Of a stretch of 36,553 nucleotides of DNA, positions 1 to 36,553 are shown piece by piece. A program made the translations under genes and the position numbers. The notes under the pieces are model-generated. The model searched no databases, was not told the origin of the DNA, and was given only the letters and a program-made list of their open reading frames with translations. Origin of the DNA: Vermamoeba vermiformis (taxonomy: Eukaryota); NCBI GenBank assembly GCA_045837725.1, contig JBEWZL010000031.1, forward strand, positions 1 to 36,553. Reading direction: 5' to 3'. Position 1 is the stretch's first letter. Each line of letters begins with the position of its first letter.

Positions 1-145
1 AAAGAGTTCGCGCTAGGCGACATATCGCCTGAAATCTCGCGATAATCTCGCGAGATAAAAACACTTTGTATCGTTATTTATTGTACGCTTTACTCTTATA
101 TCAATAAACACAACTTACCGTTATTATTCCGACGGATATTCTACA
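1..145 (+). repeat. 5' LTR (truncated by the window edge; full length ~162 bp)
   Basis: Identical to the reassembled 3' LTR. Ends ...ATTCTACA and contains AATAAA at 103-108. Confidence 0.95.
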
Positions 146-147
146 TT

Positions 148-157
148 TGGTTCCGAT
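148..157 (+). promoter_or_regulatory. Primer-binding site (TGGTTCCGAT), possibly complementary to a tRNA-Glu 3' end
   Basis: TGG lies 2 nt after the LTR-terminal CA. The complement ATCGGAACCA resembles tRNA acceptor-end sequence plus CCA. The tRNA identity is inference. Confidence 0.65.
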
Positions 158-275
158 TTTGCGTGAACCGTTGTTGTAGATTCGGTTGTGGAAATTGATT
201 CGGAGTTGGCAAAACGTTGTATGAAAATTGTAATAACATCGCCAATAATTCCAATAATTATATTACAAGCCACCT

Positions 276-2373
276 ATGTCGTCAGACAATCGCATCCGTA
301 CGCGCTCTCAATCGCAGCGAGACCTGCTCGCATCTCAAGGGGGAGAAGCCCCGCCCAGCCAGCAGCCTAGCTCAAACGCTAGAGCGGACAGCTCAGCGCC
401 TGGGACTACCTCGACGGCCGCTCCCCTAGCACCGAGCTCAGAGGGGACGCGGACCAACTCAGGGATGAAAGACTCCCGCGAGAGTTCACGGTCGAGAGCT
501 AGTTCTCACGCCTCTGCAGCTGCTCCTAAGTCGCACGCCTCCCAGGCAGAGCCCGGCAATCAAGCTAGTCCGCGCAAAAGGTCAAGATCTCGCCAATCTG
601 ACCAAAGGGATGACAATGGCCGCTCCCCTAGCCCCAGGAGCTCGAGCCCCTCTCCCAAGCGCCGTGACCGAAGCTCGCGAAGGCACAGACGTCGATCCGA
701 ACGTAGAGACCGGCGCAGAAGTCGCCAATCAAGGTCCCGTTCTCGTGATCACAGATCTGATCGCCAAAAGCACCGCCGCGCTCGCCATTCTAAGTCTCGT
801 TCTCGTTCCCGCTCTCGCTCAGCAAGCTATGACAGCTCTTCAAGAAGCCGCTCAAGAAGTGCTTCTCGCGATCGTCGCCGATCTCGGAGAGAAAAATCTA
901 AGAGAACAAGCTCTAAGTCCCGCAAGCAGACGCGCACGCGTGAGGAAGGCACCAGACACTCGCGTCAACGCGATGTAGCTCAGCAAGGTGCCGTGATAAC
1001 CGTTACTGAGAATGAGACAACTCGTGACACAACTCAACAACCTCCACCTCGCGAACGAATTGACAACAGGGGGACTCAAGACAGCCCTTCTGACAACAAT
1101 TGGTCCCGCCCCGACCAAACTGCTCAAGACGCGCAGTTCGCGCAAGAAGTTCAGGAGTACGAAGAGTTCCGTCACATGACAATCGATTCAATCAAGCAGC
1201 TTCAACTCGAGACCAAGGACAACGCAAAGCACATACAGCTACTTGGGGAATCCCTTTCTGATATCAAGAGACAACTGACCAACCTCGTACACAAGATCGA
1301 GGAACACCAGCAGGACACTGTCCGTCAGTTGCAATTCTTGTCTGAGCCCAATTCAGGCGCGGAAGAGACTCGTGGTGCAGCTCCTAAGCGTGTTATTCCT
1401 GTTCATGGCTCAGCAGTTGCCAAGCGCTACACTCGCAAAGGCTCTGAAGTACCTAGCCACCAAAAGCCTCTCAATGAGAAAGAGATTCCGAGCGAATGCC
1501 TTTTCTTTTAGACTGGCATGAACAGCTGCAGAAAATTAGCTTACAACGCTGGTATACCAAGATCTTGCTTTGGCAAGCCATCCTCGACTGGAGTGATCGG
1601 CAGACTCTGCAATGCATGTGCCTCAGAGTTCGCGGAGAAGCTGCAACCTACATCGAGAGAGGAGATGTCATTGGCCCAGCTACAACTCCGGAGGACCTGT
1701 TCGAAATGTTCAGTGCTAATTTCTCAAACACTGCAACGGAGCTCTCGCTTTCACTCACTTTGGATAGCATTCACATGCAGACCAATGAGGGTGTCAGCGA
1801 CTACAATGCACGCTTCATGAAGACTCTGGCTCAAGTGGGAGACATTGACGAGTCGCGCAAGCTGATCGCGTACATTAAAGGCCTAAGCAGCAAGTACCGA
1901 GACATCATGGCCCTTGCACGACCATCAACCCTTGCTGCTGCAATGCAAGCATTGTCCCTCACTACCGCGTTCCAACAAGCCACCAATGTAACACCAACAG
2001 GCAACACGCCTGTTACAGCTACACCAGCCACTAGTTCCGTGTTACCAGCTGTCAGTGTCGCCAACACTGAGATGACCCAGTTGCTACAGACACTGGTCCA
2101 GTCCGTTAATAAGATGTCGACATCTCTGGAACAGTCAAAGTCTAACTTCAACAATAAGCCATTCTACCAGCGCTTCCAAGGACAGAACCAAAGTCAGACC
2201 TCAACCTCTGGGCAACCTAAGACCCAGATCCCCTCAAGTGCTGCAACACCCAAGCCGAATGGCTCAAGCTTCCAACGCTCTATAGATAACAATCCACGAG
2301 TGAGCGCAGCCCTTGAAAGGATAACCCTCAGAGGGACCTGGCTGAAGAGGGTATTGATCAGGAAAACGCCTAA
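276..2373 (+). CDS. gag: Gag-like protein with N-terminal Arg/Ser-rich domain, coiled coil and capsid-like domain (frameshifted near 1500 and ~2300)
   Basis: ORFs 276-1511 and 1496-2419. Capsid major-homology-like motif QTNEGVSDYNARF...AYIKGL. Likely true end is ...GIDQENA* at 2371-2373. Confidence 0.8.
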
Positions 2374-5300
2374 GTCGGGATGGCTCACCAGCCCTCCAGA
2401 AAAGACGTTCCCTCCTTGAGGCAGGACCTAGTCAATAATGAAGCCGACATCTCGTCAGTGGTGCCAGCGTCAATCCTCGATAAGTCCCTCATTTAGTGGA
2501 ACCAGGCCAAATCTGGGGTGGTTGGACCCATCAAATTAATAAATGGGTGAGTGCTCTATGCGCCTATTCAGCTGTTCAACAGACAGATCCAAGCTTTGTT
2601 GGATCAGTGGGACCTCGTGCAATCTAATCTCATCATCGGCGTGTCAAACGCCCAGAAACGAGACCAGAAGCAAAAGGTTAAAGTCAACTTCTAGCCACGT
2701 CAGGCTTCTGCCATCAACGACAGCAAACTCAAGATTGAAGGTACTGCTATTCTACCTATCCGGTTTGCAAATGGCCTCAGCTATGACGTGAAGTTTGCCC
2801 TGTCTCCAGAGATCAATCACCTCGTAGTGTTGGGCATGGACTTCATCAGGTTGACAAAGCCGTGCATGGACTTTGGCTCTGAGAATGTGTGGTTCCACGA
2901 GTCAACCCCTGACTACCCACAGCTACCCTTGAAGCGTAAGCGCACAAAGCCCAAGTCAACGCGACAGAGGCGCAGAGAGCTGCGCGCAGAGCAACGTGAA
3001 TTTATCAACTCTGTTACTGGCTATTCAATCAGTGACTTACTGGTCGACCCCTCCGAGGATACTGCTCGCGTGCCAGTTATCACACATGGCCACCTTAGTA
3101 TACCTGCGCGATCAGAGACACTGTTCTTGCTACCAACACCTGTGCACTATCGCTCTGCTCTAGTTGTGCCAGCAACCAACTTTTACCACCAGTATGGAGT
3201 ACAATTGGCTCTAGCTGTAGTTAGCATCAAGAACGGGAATGTTCCAATCCGTATCATCAATGCTAGTGAGCGAGAGGTCATCATCCCTCCATTACGGCGC
3301 ATCGCTCACTTAGAGACTTATGAACTCATCCAGACCTCTGACGAAGTCAACTCCGTAGATGACAGTCCTATGGATGAGGAATGGGTTGATGCGCGCTTCA
3401 AATTCACGAACACTAAGCTGAGTGCAGCCCAATTGCATGAAATCAAGCTATTAGTGTGGCGCAATCGAGACAGATTCAGTCAAGTGTTAGGCAACACCAA
3501 TGCAGCTGAACACCGGATCGATCTCACAACCGACACTACACCGAAAGCACACGGATATCGAATACCAGAGGCTCATTTGAAGGTGGTGCAAGGCGAGATA
3601 GATCGTATGCTGGATCTAGGAATCGTGGTTCCCTGGAAGCCGCCCATGTCAGCTCCTATTGTCTTGGTGAAGAAGAAAGATGGCACGCTACGGTTCTGTG
3701 TGGATTATCGCAAACTCAATGCGATCACTCAGAAGGACGTCTACCAACTGCCCCGTATCAATGACATCTTGGCCATACTCTCTGGCAATATCTTCTTCTC
3801 TACATTCGATGCTGACAGTGGCTTGTGGCAAGTAACTGTCCGACCAGAGGATCGTGCAAAGACTGCGTTCACTAGTCCCCTTTGGGCTATTCGAGTTCAA
3901 TAGGATGCCCATTGGGCTGTGTAATGCACCTGCTACATTTCAACGTTTGATGGATGTCGTCCTTTCAGGCCTCCTATGGAAGAATTGCCTGGTCTATATG
4001 GATGATATCATCGTATTTGGTCGCAGTTTCGACGAGCATCTCGACAATTTGACCCTAGTACTTGACGCCCTTCGAGCTGCCAACATCACTCTCAAGCCAT
4101 CAAAATGTAAATTGTTCTGCGAGGAGATTCAATTCCTTGGACATGTCGTGTCTTCAGCAGGAGTTGCAACAGACCCAGAGAAGGGGAACAAGATCAAGGA
4201 CATGCCAGCGCCACGCAATGCTCATGAAGTGAGAATATTCACTGGCCTCACTGGGTATTACAGAAAGTTCATTAAGAATTACGCCACAATTGCCGAACCC
4301 TTAAATAAGCTACTGCGTAAAGAAGGAGAGTGGCAATGGGACACTCCACAGCAACAAGCAGTTGACGAGTTGAAGAGGAGACTAACAGAAGCACCTATAC
4401 TGGCGTTCCCTGACTTCAATCTGCCCTTCGTACTGTTCACAGATGCATCAAATCACGGCATTGGTGCGGTGCTCTCTCAAGTTCAAGATGGCAAAGAGGT
4501 GGTAATCTGTTACTTCTCTCGAACCCTAAACGCTGCTGAACGAAACTATTCTACTACGGAACGAGAATGCCTGGCAATAGTTGACGCCGTCAAGAACTTC
4601 CGCTACTACCTAATTGGTCGTCGATTTGAAGTAGTGGTGGACCATCACAGCCTTCGATGGTTGAAGACAGTCGGAGACAATTCACAGCGCTTCACTCGTT
4701 GGAGTTTACAGCTACAAGAGTTTGATTACGACGTTTCTTATCGTCCTACCAAACAGCACGCCAACAGCGATGCCTGCTCACCACTTACTGGAGAAGTTGT
4801 CAATATGGTCAGCACAATCAGTGACTTCCGTGATGAGCAAATGCGAGATCCAATGCTTCATAGCTACATTGAATACTTGACAAAGAAGACTCTTCCACCT
4901 GATGTGAACTTCTGCGACAAGACATTATCAAGGCATGTGTCGAACTGATCAGTGATCGATGGACTGCTATTTAGAATCTGGCATTCTCAAGGCTTTCGTA
5001 ACAGCGAATCAAGATCTCAACTTGTCGTCCCGTTGACTTTATACGCCAAAGTTATTGAAGAGCATCACGATTCAAGCATTGTTTTTTAACTGGTTTCTTC
5101 AAGACATATGAACGAACCTGCGAACGCCATTTCTGGGATCATATGCTTCAAGACATCGCTACTTGGGTCTCGACCTGCGAGCAGTTATATCCGTCGTAAG
5201 CGAACAAAGTTAACTGGGCTACTACAACCCATACACTCTTCCGCACCATTCGAAACAATAGGAATGGACATATTAGGCCCCTTCAACCCTACACACGCAA

Positions 5301-6443
5301 TGGCAATCGCTACATTATCGTCATTGTCGACTACTTCACTAAGTGGGGCTGAAGCGTGCCTACTTCGAGATCAATCAACAATGGAGATTGCAAAGAAATC
5401 TATGGCAAGAAGCGTATATGCCGACATGGTGTCTCCTCGTCGTATCCTCACTGATCAAGGAAGCAATTTCTGGCCAGCACTGGCTCAAGACATCTACCGT
5501 GTGTTGAATTCAAAGAAGATGGGTACAACAGCCTACCATCCACAGACGGATGGCTGAACAGAAAAGTACCAACCACAGTCTTGCTACCATGCTGACTCAT
5601 TATGTCAACGAGTTTGAAGATGACTGGGACGACTATATCAATTATGTCCTATTTGCTTATCGCATTGCAGTGCATCACTCTACTAAGTACTCTCCGTTCT
5701 TCTTGTTATATGGGCGACAAGCACGAATGCCCAGTAACTTAGATCAATTCGAAAGAGTGGATGAGTCACAACCAGACATTGACGAGTATGCACGCGACTT
5801 GTTGCGTAAGTTGAACATAACCTACAGCGATGTACGCGACAACAATCTATTAGCAAAACAACGTCAAAAGAAGCAATACGATCGCATAAGGATCAAAGAA
5901 AGCATTAAGGTTGGAGACAAAGTTTATTTGGATTTGATAGTTGGATCAAAACTTTCGTACAAGAACGAAGGGCCTTTCAAAGTCACACATGTGAAAGGTT
6001 TAGTCTGTGACATTCAACATTTAGAAAACAAACGCGATGTTAGACGAGTCAACGTCAGTCAACTACGACACACACCAACTAGAATTAACAACAACGGAGA
6101 GAGCTCTTCTACCGACTCTCAACAGAACCACGAGTCTCATGTGGATAACAAAGAGATATTGCAATCAGCTGAGCCGCCTACCAGCGAGATTGTGCGCAAG
6201 AAGAAAACACGAGAGCCAACTCTTCTCAAAGATTTAACAAGAATCAAAGACAGCTTGTCAGAACCGAATTTTTCCTCCAACAAGAAATTGGTTCTTCAAT
6301 TGCTCGGCAAAGGATCGCCTTTCATTTCCTCCAGCAGATTAGAACAACAGTACGACAAGCAAATCAAAGCAACGGACAATGCCGAAGAATTGAAGAAATT
6401 TATTTCTGAAGTCATTCGCGACAACGGAGCGTCGCGTCTTTAA
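2361..6443 (+). pseudogene. pol: Pol polyprotein (protease, RT, RNase H, integrase with GPY/F module), broken by several frameshifts or stops
   Basis: Frameshifted ALLDSGTSCNLI protease site near 2592-2630. RT motifs LRFCVDYRKLN, MPIGLCNAPATFQR and YMDD. RNase H TDAS and NYSTTERECLA. Integrase GMDILGP, TDQGSNF and AYHPQTDG. GPF motif KVGDKV...EGPFKV. Confidence 0.92.
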
Positions 6444-6459
6444 AAGATGGGGGGAGGAA
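6442..6459 (+). promoter_or_regulatory. Polypurine tract
   Basis: AAAAGATGGGGGGAGGAA directly precedes the TG that starts the 3' LTR. Confidence 0.9.
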
Positions 6460-6600
6460 TGTAACACCACGCGCGAAAAGAGTTCGCGCTAGGCGACATA
6501 TCGCCTGAAATCTCGCGATAATCTCGCGAGATAAAAACACTTTGTATCGTTATTTATTGTACGCTTTACTCTTATATCAATAAACACAACTTACCGTTAT
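6460..6600 (+). repeat. 3' LTR, upstream part
   Basis: Starts TGTAAC; 6477-6600 is identical to 1-124. Confidence 0.95.
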
Positions 6601-6643
6601 CTTCCCCACCCCAGACCTCCACCCCGGACCTCCGCCCCGGACT
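6601..6643 (+). repeat. Left TIR (three ~13-bp CCACCCCGGACCT units)
   Basis: Matches the reverse complement of 8351-8393 at 40 of 43 positions. Confidence 0.93.
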
Positions 6644-6862
6644 AATTAATTAACGATTAAAAGCGTATTAATTTAGGTAAAGGGCTGATTAATTTTAATT
6701 ATATTAATATTAATGGATTATATTATATTGATAATTAAAGAGTTGGTATTGATAACGATTTAATAATTTACGCGCCAAAATTCAAAAAAATTTACCCGAT
6801 CCAAAAATTTCGGTTTTCCGTTTATTTTTAACAACCCACGAGCCATTAACACCACACCAGCA

Positions 6863-8307
6863 ATGGAAAACAATACAAATGTAAGTAATAGAGATATTTG
6901 ACCGGAAGAGTGGTACTTTTTTGTTCGTCTTTGAATTAGAAAGCAGAATTTAATTTTTTGGTTGCTGGATTTAGGCTCCGGAGAAAAAATCAAACCCACG
7001 AAAGCGAAAACGCACGCGCAAATTATCCAAAAAGCAGAAACGATTAAAGACAGTGTAAGTAACATTATATTAGGCCTGCTCCGTTCTTGATTCAGTTGTA
7101 ACGGCTACTTATGAAATTTCCTATTAGAGCGACTATTGCGGATCAGCTCAAAGCTGAGGGTTGGACACAGCTCGATAAGTGCCCTATTCGATTCCGAGAG
7201 ATGGAAGTGATATCTAAGGTCACTCTAAACACTGTCAACCCACTATCACCACTTCAGTGCTTTCGCATTCTTTGGACCGATGCCATTCATGACGCGTGGA
7301 TCAGTGCAGCACGTGCAAACATTCAACATAACTTTCAAGTGCTTCAGCCTGCTGCAATACACAATACTGGTTGGTTCTACATAGGATTCCATCTCAACCT
7401 CATAGCAGCACCTGCATCTTCAATAAGAGCCAATTTCAATGCACTTCAAGTCCTCCGGAACCACGATGTCTATGAAGGCCTTCACACAGCACGGGGTTCC
7501 ATCGACCCATACAACCTTGCCCAGCTATTGAGTGACTCTTTCACTGCTGCTGTGAACATAGGGTCCCATGTCTCTATTGATGAGATAATTGCTGAATCAA
7601 GCCTTGATAGCCCTGCAGTTTCAGTTGTCCCTCGAAAGCCCCACTCAAAAGGTGTCATTCTTTGGGGTGCTGGTGTCAAACTTCCATGCAACACTCCCTT
7701 TGTTGTGCGTGTAGTTCCAAAGACTGAAGACTTTGTAGACTGGACAACCCAACAGATAGTAGAGAAGTTGGTTTCTCCCATTAATGTCCCTCACAAGATT
7801 AATTTTGTGATGGATTCTTGGTTCGACAGTGCTGGAGTCAAAGAGTACATCAACTCAACAGGCCATTTTTATACATTAGGTGCTCATTCAAATCGAGACA
7901 AGAACTTTTGGGAGTGGGCCAAGACAGGTCTGCTTCCAAATACATGGCGACAGTTCTACAATGATACCACTGGAGTGCTTGCCAGCGTGTTTCACGACAC
8001 ATCAGTACACTCATGTACCAGCACCGCTTACAGAAAAGTGAACCTGATGAACCAGACACTCACTCGATGCCCTCTATCTGATGCTTATAAGGCACATTTC
8101 AACTACATAGACTTATTTGACCGGAGGTTCTATACTTTTGATATGCCTCATCGAGCCCACACCATCAAAGGCGTTCTGTTTGATGCTCTGCTACACATTG
8201 CTGTTATCAATGCGATGGTCCTGTACAACTCCCAAGAGGGAGTTAACCATTTTACTCTAGGAGAGTGGACAAAGGCACTATCCAAGGCCTTGTTGCCAGT
8301 TGTTTGA
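6863..8307 (+). CDS. piggyBac-like DDD transposase, ~425 aa; predicted exons 6863-6880, 6975-7054, 7128-8307
   Basis: Motifs VSIDE (D at 7579), PRKPHSKG..LW, VMDSWFDS (D at 7813) and YKAHFNYIDLFD (D at 8110). Two GTAAGT...TAG introns join in frame and add the basic stretch PRKRKRTRKLSKKQKR. AATAAA at 8332. Confidence 0.88.
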
Positions 8308-8350
8308 TATAGAATCACTATAATATATATAAATAAATGATGAATTTTTA

Positions 8351-8393
8351 AGACCGGGGTGGAGGTCCGGGGTGGAGGTCCGGGGTGGGGAAG
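8351..8393 (-). repeat. Right TIR
   Basis: AGACCGGGGTGGAGGTCCGGGGTGGAGGTCCGGGGTGGGGAAG, an inverted copy of 6601-6643. Confidence 0.93.
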
Positions 8394-8418
8394 TTATTAT
8401 TCCGACGGATATTCTACA
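8394..8418 (+). repeat. 3' LTR, terminal part (includes the duplicated TTAT)
   Basis: Identical to 121-145; ends CA. Confidence 0.93.
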
Positions 8419-8422
8419 ATTC

Positions 8423-9224
8423 TTACTCTTGCGTTGTTATCTCATCCAGCACTCGCTGAATTTCCGCAGTTTCTGCTTCAATTTGCATTTTCAGAAGCAA
8501 TGCTCCATATTCAAGCGCCTTTCGCTGAGACTTCTTATATACAATTAATCGACCCCCTATTTCATGAGGAAGCACTCGTGGCTCTTCAAAAATGTTTTCG
8601 ACTGAGACTGGATCGTAAGTCAAATCCACTTCGTAATAGTAATCTCTCGGATATTTGTTGTTTTTTAAATCAGCTCTTGTCCAATATTGAGAGAAAAAAG
8701 TCCATCGATAAGGATGAACTTTGATAACGACGTTGGGGCTTTCGAGTTCGCTGAAAAATCCACCGAGCTTTCTTTTCAGGCGTTGATTATTGACTAATAG
8801 CACGCAATATGCAACAACTTCTTTCTTTAAGTCGATCGAGGCCAATACACGCTTGTCTGTCAGATCGAGATCCGGATTAGGTCCTTCACGAACTTGTTTA
8901 AGCTCGTTTAATATCTTTTCAGCTCCTCCTAATGAACGGCAAACTCTAGCCCAAAAGGTATTATTCTAATAAGGCCGTTAAATTAAATTTCAAATTCATC
9001 AATTACAGATTTGACTTACGCCGCCAAGCAAATCGTGGTAATAGTATTTACATGTAATAATTAGTTGCACAAAATCATGTGTAGATAATGTATCTATCAA
9101 TAAGATCAAAATATCTTCAGGTAAGGCGCTGAAAAATCCTTCTCTTTGCAAATCAAAATTCCGAGCCTGGCTGAATAATGCTATTAGATAATTATTATTT
9201 ATATCAAACTTACGAATTTCCCAT
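8423..9224 (-). CDS. F-box domain protein, three predicted exons, possible N-myristoylation (MGNSQA)
   Basis: F-box motif FSALPEDILILLIDTLSTHDFVQLIITCKYY...NNTFW. Introns 9213-9171 and ~9019-8967 restore the frame into ORF 8423-8845. Confidence 0.65.
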
Positions 9225-29600: not shown

Positions 29601-31415
29601 TAATCTGACACTTTACGTTTCCAGAACGCTTCAGAACAATCAACTGAGTGGTACTGTGCCATCATCGTTGAGCTCGAATACAGGATTGAAGCAACTGTAA
29701 GTGCTCTGTTTATCGATTAGTACCGCTAACGCTGCAACAGGAACTTGGCCGGCAACCAGTTGACGGGATTCTTCGAGCCAACAATGGCCCTGGTCGAGTG
29801 CAATCTGGGAGGAAACAACTTTTGTTGCGGTGATCTAACCTCAGGTGCTTGTCGCGCTAGCTCTCCATGTAAGTTACTTCCACATATTTCTACGTGTACC
29901 TAACGTCTACATTAAGGCTCGGGAACTCGCAAGATCGTTGCTCAAAATGAGACCATCACTATGTCGCAGCAATTCCAATGTAAGCACTACGATGCAAAAG
30001 GAGTTATTAATGAACTCACCATGTATTTTCTAGCGCTCGATGTGCCCGCAGGAGTTGTGCTGCTTGTTGATCCAAACACAAACATTCAGACTCAATGCCT
30101 CAGTTTGAGTGGCGATATCCAGCTCTTAGTATCAAGCACGCCTTCACAAGACACTACGTTCATGCCAATTTCTTATTCGCACGCGTTCACCACCCTTCCC
30201 ACTGGTGATTTGAACGTTGTTTCGAACGACAAGTGCACCAACTTTGCAGCTCAACTGTCAGTCACGCCTGTTACGGACACAACGACGGGCTCGTTGACTA
30301 TCGCGCTCACAGCGTCTGCAGTTGCCGGTTGCTCGAACTTGAGTGAGGCAACAGTGTTTGCTCTCGCTTTTTCTCTCGGCATTGGTCTGCCGCTGATCAT
30401 CGCTCTCATTGTGGTGATTGTGCTGTGGCGCAAAGGTCGATTCAGAAGAAACATTCGTCAACAAGTGTCCATGGACATCATGACCTCGTTGGCTGACAAA
30501 TCATTCTTGACTCCTTCATCATCACTCAAACTCGATCGTGAACTTGGTGCTGGCAGTTTTGGCAAAGTTTATGTCGGCAAGTGGCAACAAACACAAGTTG
30601 CGTTCAAGTTCTGCAATGTTCCAAGCAAGATGGATGAGTTCTTGCGTGAAGCAGCACTGATGATGAAACTGACACCTCATCCGAACGTTGTTCAACTTCT
30701 TGCAATCAGTATCGATGGACCTGAACCTGTCATTGTTCTGGAATACTGTGACGGTGGATCACTTGACAATATATTGTTCGACTCAACGAAGGCTATCTCA
30801 TACGAAGAGAAGATTCGTTACGCGGCAGGTAAGATGACACTTTGTGGCACGTGTCATTCTTGGTAACTAACAACATTCGCTCAGGTATCGCTCGAGGCAT
30901 GCTTCATCTTCACAAGCATAACATTGTTCATCGTGATTTGGCCGCACGCAACGTGTTGATTCAGAAAGGCAGTCCTAAAGTGTCAGACTTTGGCATGTCG
31001 CGACTGCTCCAGGTCAACAACGAGTCAAAGACTTACAGCAACATCGGTCCCATTCGATGGATGGCGCCTGAGTCTCTCAAAAATCGAGTGCACAGCACCA
31101 AGACGGTATGTTTGGAACTATTGAGCGCTTATTAGTAGTGTACTGACGATGTGCCTTCAGGATGTTTGGATGTACGGCATTGTTCTGACTGAAATCATCT
31201 CGCAAGCAGAGCCGCACGTCAGCGAAGACCCTCTGGAGATTGGCGCAAAGATCAGAGATCAAGGATTGATTCCAGCGCTTCCCAATGACATGCATCCACT
31301 GCTGTCACAGCTCGTGTCAATGTGCTTGAAGATGAATGCAGATGAACGTCCTGATTTTGAATCAATCTGTCAACATATTGATCAATATTGCAGTGCGAAT
31401 GGAATAACGATATAA
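26630..31415 (+). CDS. LRR receptor kinase 1: signal peptide, ~25 LRRs, Cys cap, TM, tyrosine-kinase-like domain; ~27 exons
   Basis: LxxNxLxGxIP repeats, TM LAFSLGIGLPLIIALIVVIVLW, and kinase motifs LGAGSFG, VAFK, HRDLAARN, DFG and GPIRWMAPE. Confidence 0.92.
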
Positions 31416-31658
31416 ATTTGTAAATAAAACACGATTGTCTCAAGTAGTTTCGTGCGGACCTTCTTAAAATTTTATTGTGAAGTAATTCACTTGTGGTCCC
31501 TATGTCAATCACCACAATTGTGCGATTACGAAATTATGAAAGAACTAAATCCACCACGAAGTTTCGAAAATCACACTGACGAATATGTCATCGATGGTTT
31601 TTATTGCCTATGGCGGTTAGTAATACGAAGAATTTGATACCAGTCGTAGAAGACACAA

Positions 31659-34600: not shown

Positions 34601-36457
34601 TTTGACGCGTGTCACTAACTTGTTGACATGCCAACCCTCCAGAACGCTTCAGAACAATCGCTTGAGCGGCATTATCCCTAACTCATTCAACACAATGATC
34701 AGTCTAAAACAGTTGTAAGTATTATTACTACTGCCTCAGTTAACTGGCCTCTTCTAACGAACGTAGAAATCTGGCCAATAACCAGCTGATTGGTCTGTTT
34801 GAGCCGACTGTGCAAATGTTGGAGTGCAACGTGGCAGGAAACAACTTATGCTGCGGCGATCAGACTGTCAGTATCTGTCAATCTAGCCCTCCCTGTAAGT
34901 CTTTTTCGAGGCGTGCTCTAAGTTACAACGTGCGCAACTGACGCTGTCGCGTCGATCAGGCTCAGGAACTCGAAAGATTATCACTCAAAACGAAACCATC
35001 TCATCGTTTCAGCAGTATCAATGTGAGTAAATGAAGCACATTTGAGCGTTACTAACTATACTTCACAGACCTTGAGGTCTCTTCAGGATCGATGTTGTTC
35101 GTTGACTTGACAAGTGACATTCGCACTCAATGTCTTCGCGTGAATGGCGATATCGGACTGTCAGTCACATCTACACAAGGTGCCAATGTGCAAGAGCAAT
35201 TGTCGATCACACCAATATCGTTCATTTACTCTTACAGCGACCTCATGAGTGGTTCAATGGCAGTGGCACGAGAAGAGAAGTGTCGTGACTACACTGCGAC
35301 GAAGAGTCAAGTATCAAGTACCAACTTCACAGCGGGGCAGCTTGTTGTAGAAGTCACAGCAACTGACATTGCGAGCTGTTCTGATTTGAGCGAGGCAACA
35401 GTGTTTGCTCTGGCTTTTTCTCTCGGTCTTGGTTTGCCACTGATAGTAGCTCTCATCGTGGTGATTGTGCTGTGGCGCAAGGGTCGATTCAGAAGAAACA
35501 TTCGTCAACAAGTGTCCATGGACATCATGACCTCATTGGCTGACAAATCATTCTTGACTCCTTCATCATCACTCAAACTCGATCGTGAACTTGGTTCTGG
35601 CAGTTTTGGCAAAGTTTATGTCGGCAAGTGGCAACAAACACAAGTCGCGTTCAAGTTCTGCAATGTTCCGAGCAAGATGGATGAGTTCTTGCGTGAGGCA
35701 GCACTGATGATGAAACTGACACCTCATCCGAACGTTGTTCAACTTCTTGCAATCAGTATTGACGGACCTGAACCTGTCATTGTTCTGGAATACTGTGATG
35801 GTGGATCACTTGATAACTTGCTTTTTGAAACAAGCGAGCCTATTGGTGACCACGAGAAGATTCGTATTGCTGCAGGTTTGATTTTTCCACGATTCAAAAG
35901 CCAAACCCTAACCCTCGCTCAAAAAGGTATTGCCCGAGGCATGCTTCATCTTCACAAGCATAATATTGTTCATCGTGATTTGGCTGCACGCAATGTTTTG
36001 TTGCAGAAAGGAACGCCGAAAGTATCGGACTTTGGCATGTCTCGCCTGTTGCAAGTGAACCAAGAGTCAAAGACTTACAGCAACATTGGTCCAATCAGAT
36101 GGATGGCACCTGAGTCACTGAGTGCCCGTATCAATTCTCCAAAGAGCGTAAGTGCCTGCGTATTAACGACACTTCCTGTCAAACGCTAACTCCTATTTTT
36201 AGGATGTTTGGATGTACGGCATCGTTCTGACTGAAATCATCATGCAAACTGAACCTCATATTAACGAAGACGTCCTCGCCATCGGAGCCAAGATCAGAGA
36301 TCAAGGATTGATTCCAGCACTTCCCAATGACATGCATCCACTGCTGTCACAACTCGTGTCGATGTGTTTGAAGATGAATGCAGATGAACGTCCTGACTTT
36401 GAATCAATCTGTCAACATATTGATCAATATTGCAGCGCGAACGGAATAACGATATAA
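31659..36457 (+). CDS. LRR receptor kinase 2, tandem paralog: ~25 LRRs, TM, tyrosine-kinase-like domain; ~25 exons
   Basis: Same architecture and motifs as 26630-31415, with a near-identical TM/N-lobe and C-terminus. Confidence 0.92.
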
Positions 36458-36553
36458 TTTTGTAAATAAAACAACGCCCTCATTTGCTGGCTTGTTCGTT
36501 CGTTCTCCAATCGATGGTTTAGATCTGCTGTTCTCACCTGCGAAACCAAGAAT

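What the first reader, a model, noticed from the sequence alone, without database searches (positions are those of the whole stretch)
6597..8397. Compact non-canonical piggyBac-like transposon: TTAT target, CTT termini, no cysteine-rich domain, intact
Seen: the 5' LTR provides the empty site (CCG-TTAT-TATTCC), so the 4-bp duplication is TTAT. The ends are CTTCCCC...GGGGAAG, the element is only 1793 bp, and the ORF is uninterrupted with all three catalytic Asp motifs. The protein stops soon after the catalytic domain (...KALSKALLPVV) with no Cys/His cluster. Established: canonical piggyBac duplicates TTAA, ends in CCY...RGG, and encodes a ~590-aa transposase whose C-terminal cysteine-rich domain binds the ends; occasional non-TTAA sites occur. 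Inference: this may be a distinct, recently active, miniature piggyBac lineage with different target preference and end recognition, possibly useful as a compact transposase.
Basis: partly seen in the sequence, partly recalled or inferred. Interest (0 to 1): 0.85.

Follow-up and report, generated by a model that had tools for sequence, protein, structure and literature searches.

The report
Compact piggyBac-type transposon without zinc-finger tail
This is an intact 1.8-kb "cut-and-paste" jumping gene of the piggyBac kind whose enzyme lacks the zinc-binding tail thought essential in the textbook piggyBac, and it belongs to a diverse, apparently undescribed group of such short enzymes; its unusual TTAT insertion site rests on a single verified case and is not shown to be a preference.

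Summary
Window 6601-8393 is a 1793-bp element with 43-nt terminal inverted repeats (40 of 43 matched). It is flanked by a 4-bp TTAT duplication, and the uninterrupted copy of the same LTR at window 121-124 shows the empty site.

It encodes a roughly 425-aa, three-exon protein with all catalytic Asp residues. Only 86 nt follow the stop codon, 43 of them the inverted repeat itself, so no exon for a cysteine-rich domain (CRD) fits.

The protein alone scores below Pfam's piggyBac cut-off. Homology is nevertheless secure:
- A profile of it and 18 relatives hits T. ni piggyBac at E 6e-28.
- An AlphaFold model (pLDDT 95) superposes on piggyBac residues 117-516 at Z 31.3.

The missing tail is a family trait. 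Of 59 relatives that reach the profile's C-terminal end, 56 stop within 15 residues.

The claim of a new target preference is not established. TTAT/ATAA is the commonest known off-target of ordinary piggyBac elements (about 11% in Pokey). CTT ends and the 1.8-kb size lie within published ranges. I could not obtain other copies for a count; one contig hints at a second TTAT-flanked copy.

Verdict: a new variant of a known kind, namely an autonomous core-only piggyBac lineage that moved recently.

The parts
6597..6600 (.). left copy of the 4-bp target-site duplication TTAT
   Evidence: alignment of the two LTR copies
6601..6643 (+). left terminal inverted repeat (43 nt, 40 of 43 matched to the right end; weaker similarity to 61 nt)
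6606..6642 (+). 2.8 tandem copies of a 13-nt G+C-rich unit inside the left repeat
   Evidence: Tandem Repeats Finder
6863..6880 (+). inferred exon 1 (MENNTN), followed by a GTAAGT donor
   Evidence: inferred from sequence, no RNA support
6881..6974 (+). inferred intron 1 (GT...AG, 94 nt)
   Evidence: inference
6975..7054 (+). inferred exon 2, a basic stretch with 14 K/R in 26 residues, likely a nuclear localisation signal
   Evidence: relatives also carry a short basic N-terminus before the conserved EGW motif
7055..7127 (+). inferred intron 2 (GT...AG, 73 nt); restores the frame of the long ORF
   Evidence: inference
7128..8307 (+). exon 3 with stop codon: piggyBac-type transposase core (DNA-binding/dimerisation domain, RNase H-like catalytic domain with beta-strand insertion domain); D151/D229/D328 numbered from 7129
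8351..8393 (-). right terminal inverted repeat, with 2.7 copies of the 13-nt unit at 8354-8388
8394..8397 (.). right copy of the TTAT duplication
121..124 (.). single TTAT at the uninterrupted (empty) site in the 5' LTR of the same Ty3/gypsy element
   Evidence: an empty-LTR form is also seen as a joint skipping 1797 nt in run X1
6460..6600 (+). 3' LTR of the host Ty3/gypsy element, part left of the insertion. The start at TG after a purine-rich tract is inferred; contigs of X1 diverge at 6458/6459
8398..8418 (+). 3' LTR, part right of the insertion (ends ...TTCTACA)

Best explanation
Window 6601-8393 is an autonomous cut-and-paste DNA transposon of the piggyBac superfamily. It inserted into the 3' LTR of a young Ty3/gypsy element and duplicated TTAT.

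Its single gene (three inferred exons, about 425 aa) encodes only the piggyBac core: the helical dimerisation/DNA-binding domain, the RNase H-like DDD catalytic domain and the beta-strand insertion domain, preceded by a short basic nuclear-localisation stretch. It lacks both the roughly 110-residue acidic N-terminal domain and the linker plus cysteine-rich domain (CRD) of T. ni piggyBac.

This is the normal architecture of a diverse, unnamed group of compact piggyBac-type proteins, not a truncation.

Inferred mechanism: a dimer binds the transposon tips through the core. It cuts via the piggyBac hairpin route and joins the 3' ends 4 bp apart at a T-T-A-(A/T) tetranucleotide. The three tandem 13-bp G+C-rich units at each end probably supply the extra transposase-binding sites that the CRD-bound palindrome supplies in piggyBac.

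Shown: anatomy, homology, fold, family-wide C-terminus and one verified target duplication. Inferred: splicing, dimerisation, chemistry, the role of the repeats and current activity.
For: Anatomy:
- Inverted repeats, TTAT duplication and empty site are all present.
- The empty-LTR form is also present in public run X1 as a joint skipping 1797 nt.

Homology:
- 17 of 19 aligned family members hit Pfam PF13843 at E <= 0.01 (best 2e-23), and none hits the piggyBac zinc-ribbon family.
- The profile of these 19 hits T. ni piggyBac 6x67 at E 6e-28 over residues 127-510, and piggyBat 9c0f at 1.5e-15.
- In that alignment the three Asp fall on D268, D346 and D447, D331 on D450, and the invariant Tyr on Y439.

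Fold:
- AlphaFold2 model with pLDDT 95.2 and pTM 0.93.
- Foldseek top hits are 6x67_C (E 2.8e-13) and 9c0f.
- VIA-align gives Z 31.3, rmsd 3.5 A, 353 residues aligned, model 27-392 on piggyBac 117-516. piggyBat scores Z 28.1 and the next family, Tn5, Z 16.8.

Family:
- An exhaustive phmmer search found 97 cluster representatives at E <= 1e-3.
- Of 100 stored relatives matched by the profile, 59 reach its C-terminal end and 56 of those stop within 15 residues. 17 are full-length at 362-433 aa. Only 3 of 100 carry 5 or more Cys downstream.

No room for a hidden exon: 86 nt separate the stop codon from the element end.

Youth: the LTR halves are identical to the 5' LTR over 145 nt, and X1's version differs at 3 positions.
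Against: - The window protein alone is below Pfam's cut-off for PF13843 (17.7 bits against 22.4, E 0.0023).
- There is no RNA support for the introns or for expression. Two RNA runs of the same species label put 0 reads on the element, but the few reads that fitted the flank (8568-8700) were all under 95% alike, so the strain may differ.
- No second full copy with both flanks was recovered, so mobility rests on one insertion.
- In T. ni piggyBac and in PiggyMac the CRD is required for activity (PMC7351741, PMC8086355, PMC5861402; passages and abstract). A CRD-less enzyme working alone is therefore unproven.
- The midpoint-rooted tree of search hits places other compact groups and the few CRD-bearing hits on the other side of the root. 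The compact forms are thus not shown to be one clade.
Confidence: 0.85

Rival explanations
1. The lineage has a shifted or relaxed target preference, with TTAT (= ATAA) as a main target rather than TTAA.
For: - The one verified duplication is TTAT.
- One X1 contig fits the right end through position 8398 (TTAT plus one T) and then runs on into sequence unlike the LTR. That could be a second insertion with a TTAT right flank (table 7).
- piggyBac N440, which reads the third base of TTAA (PMC7351741, passage), is K here and R/K in most of the 19 aligned relatives.
Against: - n = 1 verified site.
- TTAT/ATAA is the commonest off-target of TTAA-preferring elements: about 11% in Pokey, 7.2% non-TTAA for piggyBat and 2.4% in human cells (PMC3849761, passage).
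- The second contig shows one flank only. It could be a rearrangement next to the same insertion rather than an independent event.
- The changed base is the fourth, not the third, so the N440 difference does not map onto it.
Confidence: 0.35
2. It is a non-autonomous or dead derivative: a piggyBac element that lost its CRD and is moved, if at all, by a full-length transposase encoded elsewhere.
For: The CRD is essential in T. ni piggyBac (PMC5861402 abstract; PMC7351741 passage). No expression was detected.
Against: - The same C-terminus recurs in 56 of 59 relatives that reach it, at 20-30% identity to one another. The catalytic residues are invariant in 19 aligned members.
- A random truncation would not be conserved across such distances.
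- No CRD-bearing close relative appeared. The nearest hits (44-61% identity) end at the same place where they reach it.
Confidence: 0.07
3. It is a domesticated host gene, or a member of a different superfamily (IS1380/IS4-like, for example acquired from bacteria), and not a piggyBac transposon.
For: The window protein's own Pfam score is weak. Among the 19 relatives, 1 gives a weak NCBIfam IS1380 hit (E 2.7e-4) and 2 give weak IS701 hits (best E 5.3e-4).
Against: - Inverted repeats, a target duplication and an empty paralogous site mark a mobile element.
- Spliceosomal-type introns and a basic N-terminus fit a eukaryotic element.
- The fold match to piggyBac (Z 31.3) is far above Tn5 (Z 16.8) and ISCth4 (Z 7.7).
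- The window protein itself has 0 NCBIfam hits.
Confidence: 0.03

Closest known systems
Trichoplusia ni piggyBac (transposase 594 aa; PDB 6X67/6X68)
   Same: Same core fold and domain order over piggyBac residues 117-516 (Z 31.3). The DDD(D) residues and Y439 are conserved. Both make a 4-bp duplication with central T-A and have ends starting with C.
   Different: - No acidic N-terminal domain (about 110 aa) and no linker or CRD (553-594).
- About 425 aa against 594, and 1793 bp against 2475 bp.
- 43-nt repeats built from three 13-bp units, instead of 13-bp repeats plus a 19-bp CRD-bound palindrome.
- The basic nuclear-localisation-like stretch is N-terminal, whereas piggyBac's lies at 551-571 in the CRD region (PMC5381638, passage).
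- TTAT, not TTAA, at this copy. About 16% identity.
piggyBat (Myotis lucifugus; PDB 9C0F)
   Same: Core fold (Z 28.1; profile E 1.5e-15). It tolerates non-TTAA sites at 7.2% (quoted in PMC3849761).
   Different: piggyBat has a CRD that binds a palindrome in its left end (PMC11707139, passages).
Pokey (Daphnia piggyBac-superfamily element)
   Same: Uses TTAT and ATAA as duplications in about 11% of insertions (PMC3849761, passage).
   Different: Pokey's main target is TTAA (88%). It was not compared by sequence here because no reference sequence was available to the tools.
PGBD5 and PGBD1 (domesticated vertebrate piggyBac-derived genes)
   Same: piggyBac-derived proteins without a CRD (PMC11707139 passage; PMC5381638 table 1).
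   Different: They are host genes without inverted repeats or target duplications, and PGBD5 lacks most of the canonical Asp residues (PMC5381638 table 1). The element here is a bounded transposon with all of them. The relationship was not tested here.
'Onthophagus taurus 2' piggyBac-like candidate
   Same: Reported to 'appear to lack a CRD' in a predicted structure (PMC13099356, passage).
   Different: It came from a screen for proteins of about 600 aa next to TTAA motifs. The passages I read do not give its activity.
Tn5 / IS4 and IS1380 bacterial transposases
   Same: RNase H-like core with a beta-strand insertion domain. Bacterial IS elements of this kind are of similar compact size (recalled).
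   Different: The fold match is much weaker (Tn5 Z 16.8), and the NCBIfam hits are sporadic and weak.

Membership tests
piggyBac superfamily (by transposase core) | Sequence homology to the piggyBac transposase core (Pfam PF13843 DDE_Tnp_1_7) | tested here: met
   The window protein alone scores 17.7 bits, below the 22.4 cut-off. 17 of 19 aligned relatives hit PF13843 (best 2e-23). The family profile hits T. ni piggyBac at E 6e-28 and piggyBat at 1.5e-15.
piggyBac superfamily (by transposase core) | DDD catalytic triad in an RNase H-like fold, interrupted by a beta-strand insertion domain and wrapped by the all-helical dimerisation/DNA-binding domain | tested here: met
   D151/D229/D328 are invariant in the alignment and aligned to D268/D346/D447. 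The model superposes on piggyBac 117-516 at Z 31.3 and rmsd 3.5 A over 353 residues. Strands at 272-303 lie after the fifth core strand.
piggyBac superfamily (by transposase core) | 4-bp target-site duplication | tested here: met
   TTAT on both sides and single at the empty site.
canonical piggyBac-like element (PBLE) as defined in surveys | TTAA as the target duplication | tested here: not met
   This copy has TTAT. That is one copy only. TTAT is a known minority site of PBLEs (PMC3849761, PMC5381638), so the family's preference remains open.
canonical piggyBac-like element (PBLE) as defined in surveys | C-terminal cysteine-rich (cross-brace zinc finger) domain | tested here: not met
   The protein ends at the equivalent of piggyBac residue ~516. 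It has 1 Cys in the last 80 residues, and 86 nt run from the stop codon to the element end. No PF13842 hit in 19 relatives. 56 of 59 relatives that reach the profile end stop there.
canonical piggyBac-like element (PBLE) as defined in surveys | Inverted repeats starting C[C/A/T][C/A/T][T/G/A][T/A/G][T/G/A], 12-19 bp long | tested here: inconclusive
   CTT fits positions 1-3. CCC at positions 4-6 does not fit. The length of 43 nt exceeds the usual range, but a 50-bp case is on record in a fungus (PMC5381638, passages).
canonical piggyBac-like element (PBLE) as defined in surveys | Precise (footprint-free) excision through a hairpin intermediate | not testable with these tools
   The empty site seen is a paralogous LTR, not an excision product.
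IS1380 / IS4-type bacterial insertion sequences | Match to the curated NCBIfam transposase models | tested here: not met
   0 hits for the window protein. 1 of 19 relatives hits IS1380 at E 2.7e-4, and 2 of 19 hit IS701 at E >= 5.3e-4.

The most novel reading that the evidence does not exclude
An ancient, overlooked branch of piggyBac transposons works with the catalytic/DNA-binding core alone. End recognition would have moved from a CRD-bound palindrome to arrays of 13-bp repeats read by the core. The nuclear-import signal would have moved to the N-terminus, and the target would have shifted from palindromic TTAA to TTAT. This member would still be mobile, giving a natural transposase about 30% smaller with a different target logo.
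Probability: 0.2. Interest if true: 0.8.

Novelty: new variant of a known kind. Interest (0 to 1): 0.55.

Why it matters
The CRD is treated as indispensable for piggyBac. The largest recent mining effort kept only elements with both a CRD and a TTAA duplication (PMC13461360, passages), so lineages like this one were filtered out by design.

A bounded, intact, recently inserted element whose whole family ends right after the core argues that piggyBac-type transposition can run without the CRD. That would bear on two things:
- How transposon ends are recognised and how the synaptic complex is assembled.
- The search for smaller transposases for gene delivery.

If the TTAT site turned out to be a true preference, it would also be the first piggyBac lineage with a non-palindromic target. 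That is not shown here.

Tried and rejected
- Own genome: none is held, so the planned tabulation of all copies and their duplications could not be done.
- DNA of relatives:
  - The search for related loci found nothing in metagenome contigs (223 pattern matches, 0 confirmed).
  - Nothing in viral contigs (28, 60 and 1 pattern matches, 0 confirmed).
  - Nothing in genome contigs (29 and 21 pattern matches, 0 confirmed).
A closer alignment (A5) was then used.
- A 20-nt end pattern scanned in metagenome contigs gave 3 loci (L001-L003). All 3 are single chance matches in G+C-rich contigs without the repeats or TTAT.
- The word-based protein search found 1 relative and 2 with the profile. It was far less sensitive than the exhaustive search.
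- Sequencing runs: no RNA holder is listed. Two RNA runs of the same species label gave 0 reads on the element at 88% likeness or more. All 34 reads that were laid were under 95% alike to the flank, so the strain may differ. This is no evidence on expression.
- Homodimer prediction: no verdict, score 0.00. This is not evidence either way.
- Protein atlas: the transposase's nearest clusters carry PF13843, which adds nothing. The SNF2 neighbour gave no usable host taxonomy.
- Earlier scan findings: nothing for this place or sequence. The word search returned unrelated Naegleria piggyBac notes.
- Literature searches for a described CRD-less or compact piggyBac lineage found none. These cover only the held open-access library. 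Repbase and Dfam could not be consulted. Supplementary table S2 of PMC5381638 lists the 157 elements, including the 1,721-bp one and the 50-bp-repeat fungal one; it is closed and may hold a related element.
- 'Kobuta' turned out to be a Xenopus piggyBac subfamily name, not a compact superfamily (listing only).
Full report
**What is in the sequence.** Window 6597-8397 holds a bounded mobile element.
- The 12-mer CTTCCCCACCCC occurs exactly twice in the 36.5-kb window, at 6601 (+) and 8393 (-). The chance expectation is 0.02, and 0 of 100 shuffles gave two or more.
- The two ends match at 40 of 43 positions. Similarity fades out at 61 nt and 84%.
- Each end consists of nearly three tandem copies of a 13-nt G+C-rich unit (period 13; 2.8 and 2.7 copies).
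- The element sits in the 3' LTR of a Ty3/gypsy retrotransposon. The gag, RT and RNase H domains are; the LTR pair is.
- The other LTR copy, at the start of the window, is uninterrupted and carries one TTAT where the interrupted copy carries TTAT-element-TTAT. The two LTRs are otherwise identical over all 145 alignable bases.
- A G precedes both TTATs, so the longest junction repeat is 5 nt. Read laying reports the same ambiguity. The symmetry of the inverted repeats fixes the duplication at 4 bp and the element at 1793 bp (6601-8393).

**Gene model.**
- One ORF of 398 codons is open from 7111 to 8307.
- Upstream lie an ATG at 6863, two GTAAGT donors and two YAG acceptors. Together they give a frame-preserving three-exon model: 6863-6880, 6975-7054 and 7128-8307.
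- The model adds 33 residues, 14 of them K/R within 26, for about 425 aa in total.
- This is inferred from sequence only. It fits the family, whose full-length members carry a short basic N-terminus before a conserved EGW motif.
- After the stop codon only 86 nt remain before the element ends, and 43 of them are the inverted repeat itself. A further exon encoding a cysteine-rich domain cannot exist inside the element.

**What the protein is.**
- On its own the protein only grazes Pfam's piggyBac family (PF13843, E 0.0023, 17.7 bits against a cut-off of 22.4).
- An exhaustive phmmer search of 1.84 billion cluster representatives found 97 relatives at E <= 1e-3. Thirty are at <= 1e-10 and five at <= 1e-30.
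- In an alignment of the query with 18 of them, D151, E152, K170, G175, D229, Y320 and D328 are invariant.
- 17 of the 19 hit PF13843 (best 2e-23), and none hits the piggyBac zinc-ribbon family.
- The profile of that alignment finds T. ni piggyBac (6x67) at E 6e-28 over its residues 127-510, and piggyBat (9c0f) at 1.5e-15. The Asp residues fall on D268, D346 and D447, D331 falls on D450, and the invariant Tyr on Y439.
- An AlphaFold2 model built on 51 sequences is very confident (pLDDT 95.2, pTM 0.93).
- Foldseek ranks 6x67 and 9c0f first (E 2.8e-13 and 6.4e-10), then Tn5.
- VIA-align gives Z 31.3, rmsd 3.5 A and 353 aligned residues for model 27-392 on piggyBac 117-516. piggyBat scores Z 28.1 and Tn5 Z 16.8.
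- In the published domain map the disordered N-terminus is ~1-110, the DNA-binding/dimerisation domain 117-263 plus 457-535, the catalytic domain 263-457, the insertion domain 372-433 and the CRD 553-594 (PMC7351741, passages read).
- By that map, this protein is the piggyBac core and nothing else.

**The missing CRD is a family trait.**
- I matched the 101 stored relatives to the family profile; 100 matched, and P0075 did not.
- 59 reach the profile's C-terminal end, and 56 of these stop within 15 residues of it.
- 17 are full-length at 362-433 aa, representing 14 distinct clusters.
- Only 3 of 100 (P0067, P0079, P0098) carry five or more Cys downstream. P0067 and P0079 are ordinary piggyBac-type proteins, with strong PF13843 matches and PHD/C1-like tails.
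- A set of longer relatives also ends at the same point. Of the five of these scanned, three (P0034, P0047, P0052) carry a match to SAP-type DNA-binding domains in the extra internal sequence; only P0034's reaches Pfam's cut-off.
- In a quick maximum-likelihood tree of 60 rows, the window protein sits with P0002 and P0001 (SH-aLRT 96 and 99) inside a 19-row compact group (support 92, not starred).
- Other compact groups, the SAP group and the CRD-bearing hits lie across the midpoint root.
- I left out rows covering under 60% of the profile, and no reference piggyBac sequences could be added. The tree therefore does not say whether CRD-less forms are one clade or repeated losses.

**How it most likely works.**
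- By homology it should follow the piggyBac route: a dimer binds the tips through the core, cuts via a hairpin that includes the 4 flanking bases, and inserts with a 4-bp stagger.
- The direct TTAT repeats leave complementary overhangs on excision just as TTAA does. Precise repair is therefore not excluded (my reasoning). Precise excision from non-TTAA sites is documented for piggyBac (PMC3064801, passage).
- In piggyBac the CRD dimer binds a 19-bp palindrome inside the end and is needed for activity (PMC7351741 passages; PMC5861402 abstract). Here that role has no protein domain.
- The arrays of 13-bp repeats are the obvious candidates for extra core-binding sites, and the basic N-terminus may add unspecific DNA affinity as well as nuclear import. 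piggyBac's own nuclear-localisation signal lies in the CRD region (PMC5381638, passage).
- These steps are inferred, not shown.

**Target site.**
- Only one insertion is verified.
- TTAT/ATAA is the commonest non-TTAA site of ordinary piggyBac elements. Pokey has 5.93% TTAT and 5.09% ATAA against 88% TTAA; piggyBat has 7.2% non-TTAA sites; piggyBac in human cells has 2.4% (PMC3849761, passage).
- TTAT is among the main variant sites of piggyBac in fission yeast (PMC3064801, passage).
- TTAT and ATAA occur as rare duplications among 157 surveyed elements (PMC5381638, passage).
- In favour of a shift, one contig of run X1 fits the right end through TTAT plus one base and then continues into non-LTR sequence. 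That may be a second copy with the same right flank (table 7).
- Also in favour, piggyBac N440, which reads the third target base, is replaced by K here and by R/K in most relatives.
- I rate a real shift at about one in three.

**Age, copies, expression.**
- The LTR pair shows no difference in 145 nt. That bounds the retrotransposon's age only loosely, and the piggyBac-type insertion is younger still.
- Run X1 (same species label, possibly the source sample) holds the element in contigs of word depth about 515, against about 7,500 for the LTR.
- It differs from the window at 6910, 7417 and 8172: by my reading of the frame, one change is intronic, one is Ser to Pro and one is synonymous.
- X1 also holds the empty-LTR form. 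Depth is not a copy number, but it suggests few copies.
- Run X4, from a differently labelled organism, holds one identical 225-nt piece (7613-7837) at depth 3.7.
- Nothing can be said about expression (see Tried and rejected).

**Comparison and novelty.**
- By its core it belongs to the piggyBac superfamily.
- It fails two features that surveys and mining pipelines use to define a piggyBac-like element: the CRD, and TTAA at this copy.
- CTT ends fit the first three positions of the published end motif. The 1793-bp size lies inside the published range of 1,721-8,451 bp, and long repeats have a 50-bp precedent (PMC5381638, passages). Those points are not unusual.
- CRD-less piggyBac derivatives are known only as domesticated genes (PGBD1, PGBD5; PMC11707139 passage) and as one untested-looking beetle candidate (PMC13099356, passage).
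- The largest mining study required both a CRD and TTAA (PMC13461360, passages), so it would have discarded this group.
- My searches of the held library found no description of a compact CRD-less transposon lineage. Repbase, Dfam and the closed supplements could not be checked.
- I therefore rate it a new variant of a known kind, of moderate interest. The interest would rise if activity without a CRD or a TTAT preference were demonstrated.

Noticed in passing
proteins P0034, P0047, P0052 (relatives): Longer CRD-less relatives (548-746 aa) end at the same C-terminal point. In the extra internal sequence before the third catalytic Asp they carry a match to SAP-type DNA-binding domains; only P0034's reaches Pfam's cut-off. 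This may be an alternative replacement for the CRD.
   Followed up: partly
protein P0075: A 4405-aa predicted protein with 9 separate stretches matching the query. It did not match the family profile. It may be a read-through of tandem or nested elements.
   Followed up: no
window 6888-6920 and 8107-8139: A 33-nt direct repeat (76%, with a 12-nt exact core) links inferred intron 1 to the coding region around the third catalytic Asp. It may be chance or a trace of an internal rearrangement.
   Followed up: no
window 6719-6732 and 8314-8327: A 14-nt subterminal inverted repeat (93%) lies in the A+T-rich regions just inside the ends. It could be a sub-terminal repeat of the kind described for some piggyBac-like elements, or chance.
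   Followed up: no
window 7613-7837; run X4: A run labelled as a different organism (B) holds one 225-nt contig identical to the transposase gene, at depth 3.7. Shared element, close kinship or cross-contamination cannot be told apart.
   Followed up: no
window 1-8418: The host Ty3/gypsy element has very short LTRs (about 162 bp, inferred), and its pol is split over at least five ORFs. Its LTR has a word depth of about 7,500 in run X1, so the LTR family is abundant.
   Followed up: partly
window 8421-8638; run X1: A contig matches the flank right of the LTR exactly but has different sequence upstream of 8421. The contig that joins element, LTR and flank differs from the window at 27 positions. 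The retrotransposon insertion may be polymorphic, or the flank may be duplicated.
   Followed up: no
window 30307-31431 and 35354-36473: A tandem duplication about 5 kb apart (86-91% identity). The later copy overlaps a protein-kinase ORF at 35092-36189.
   Followed up: no
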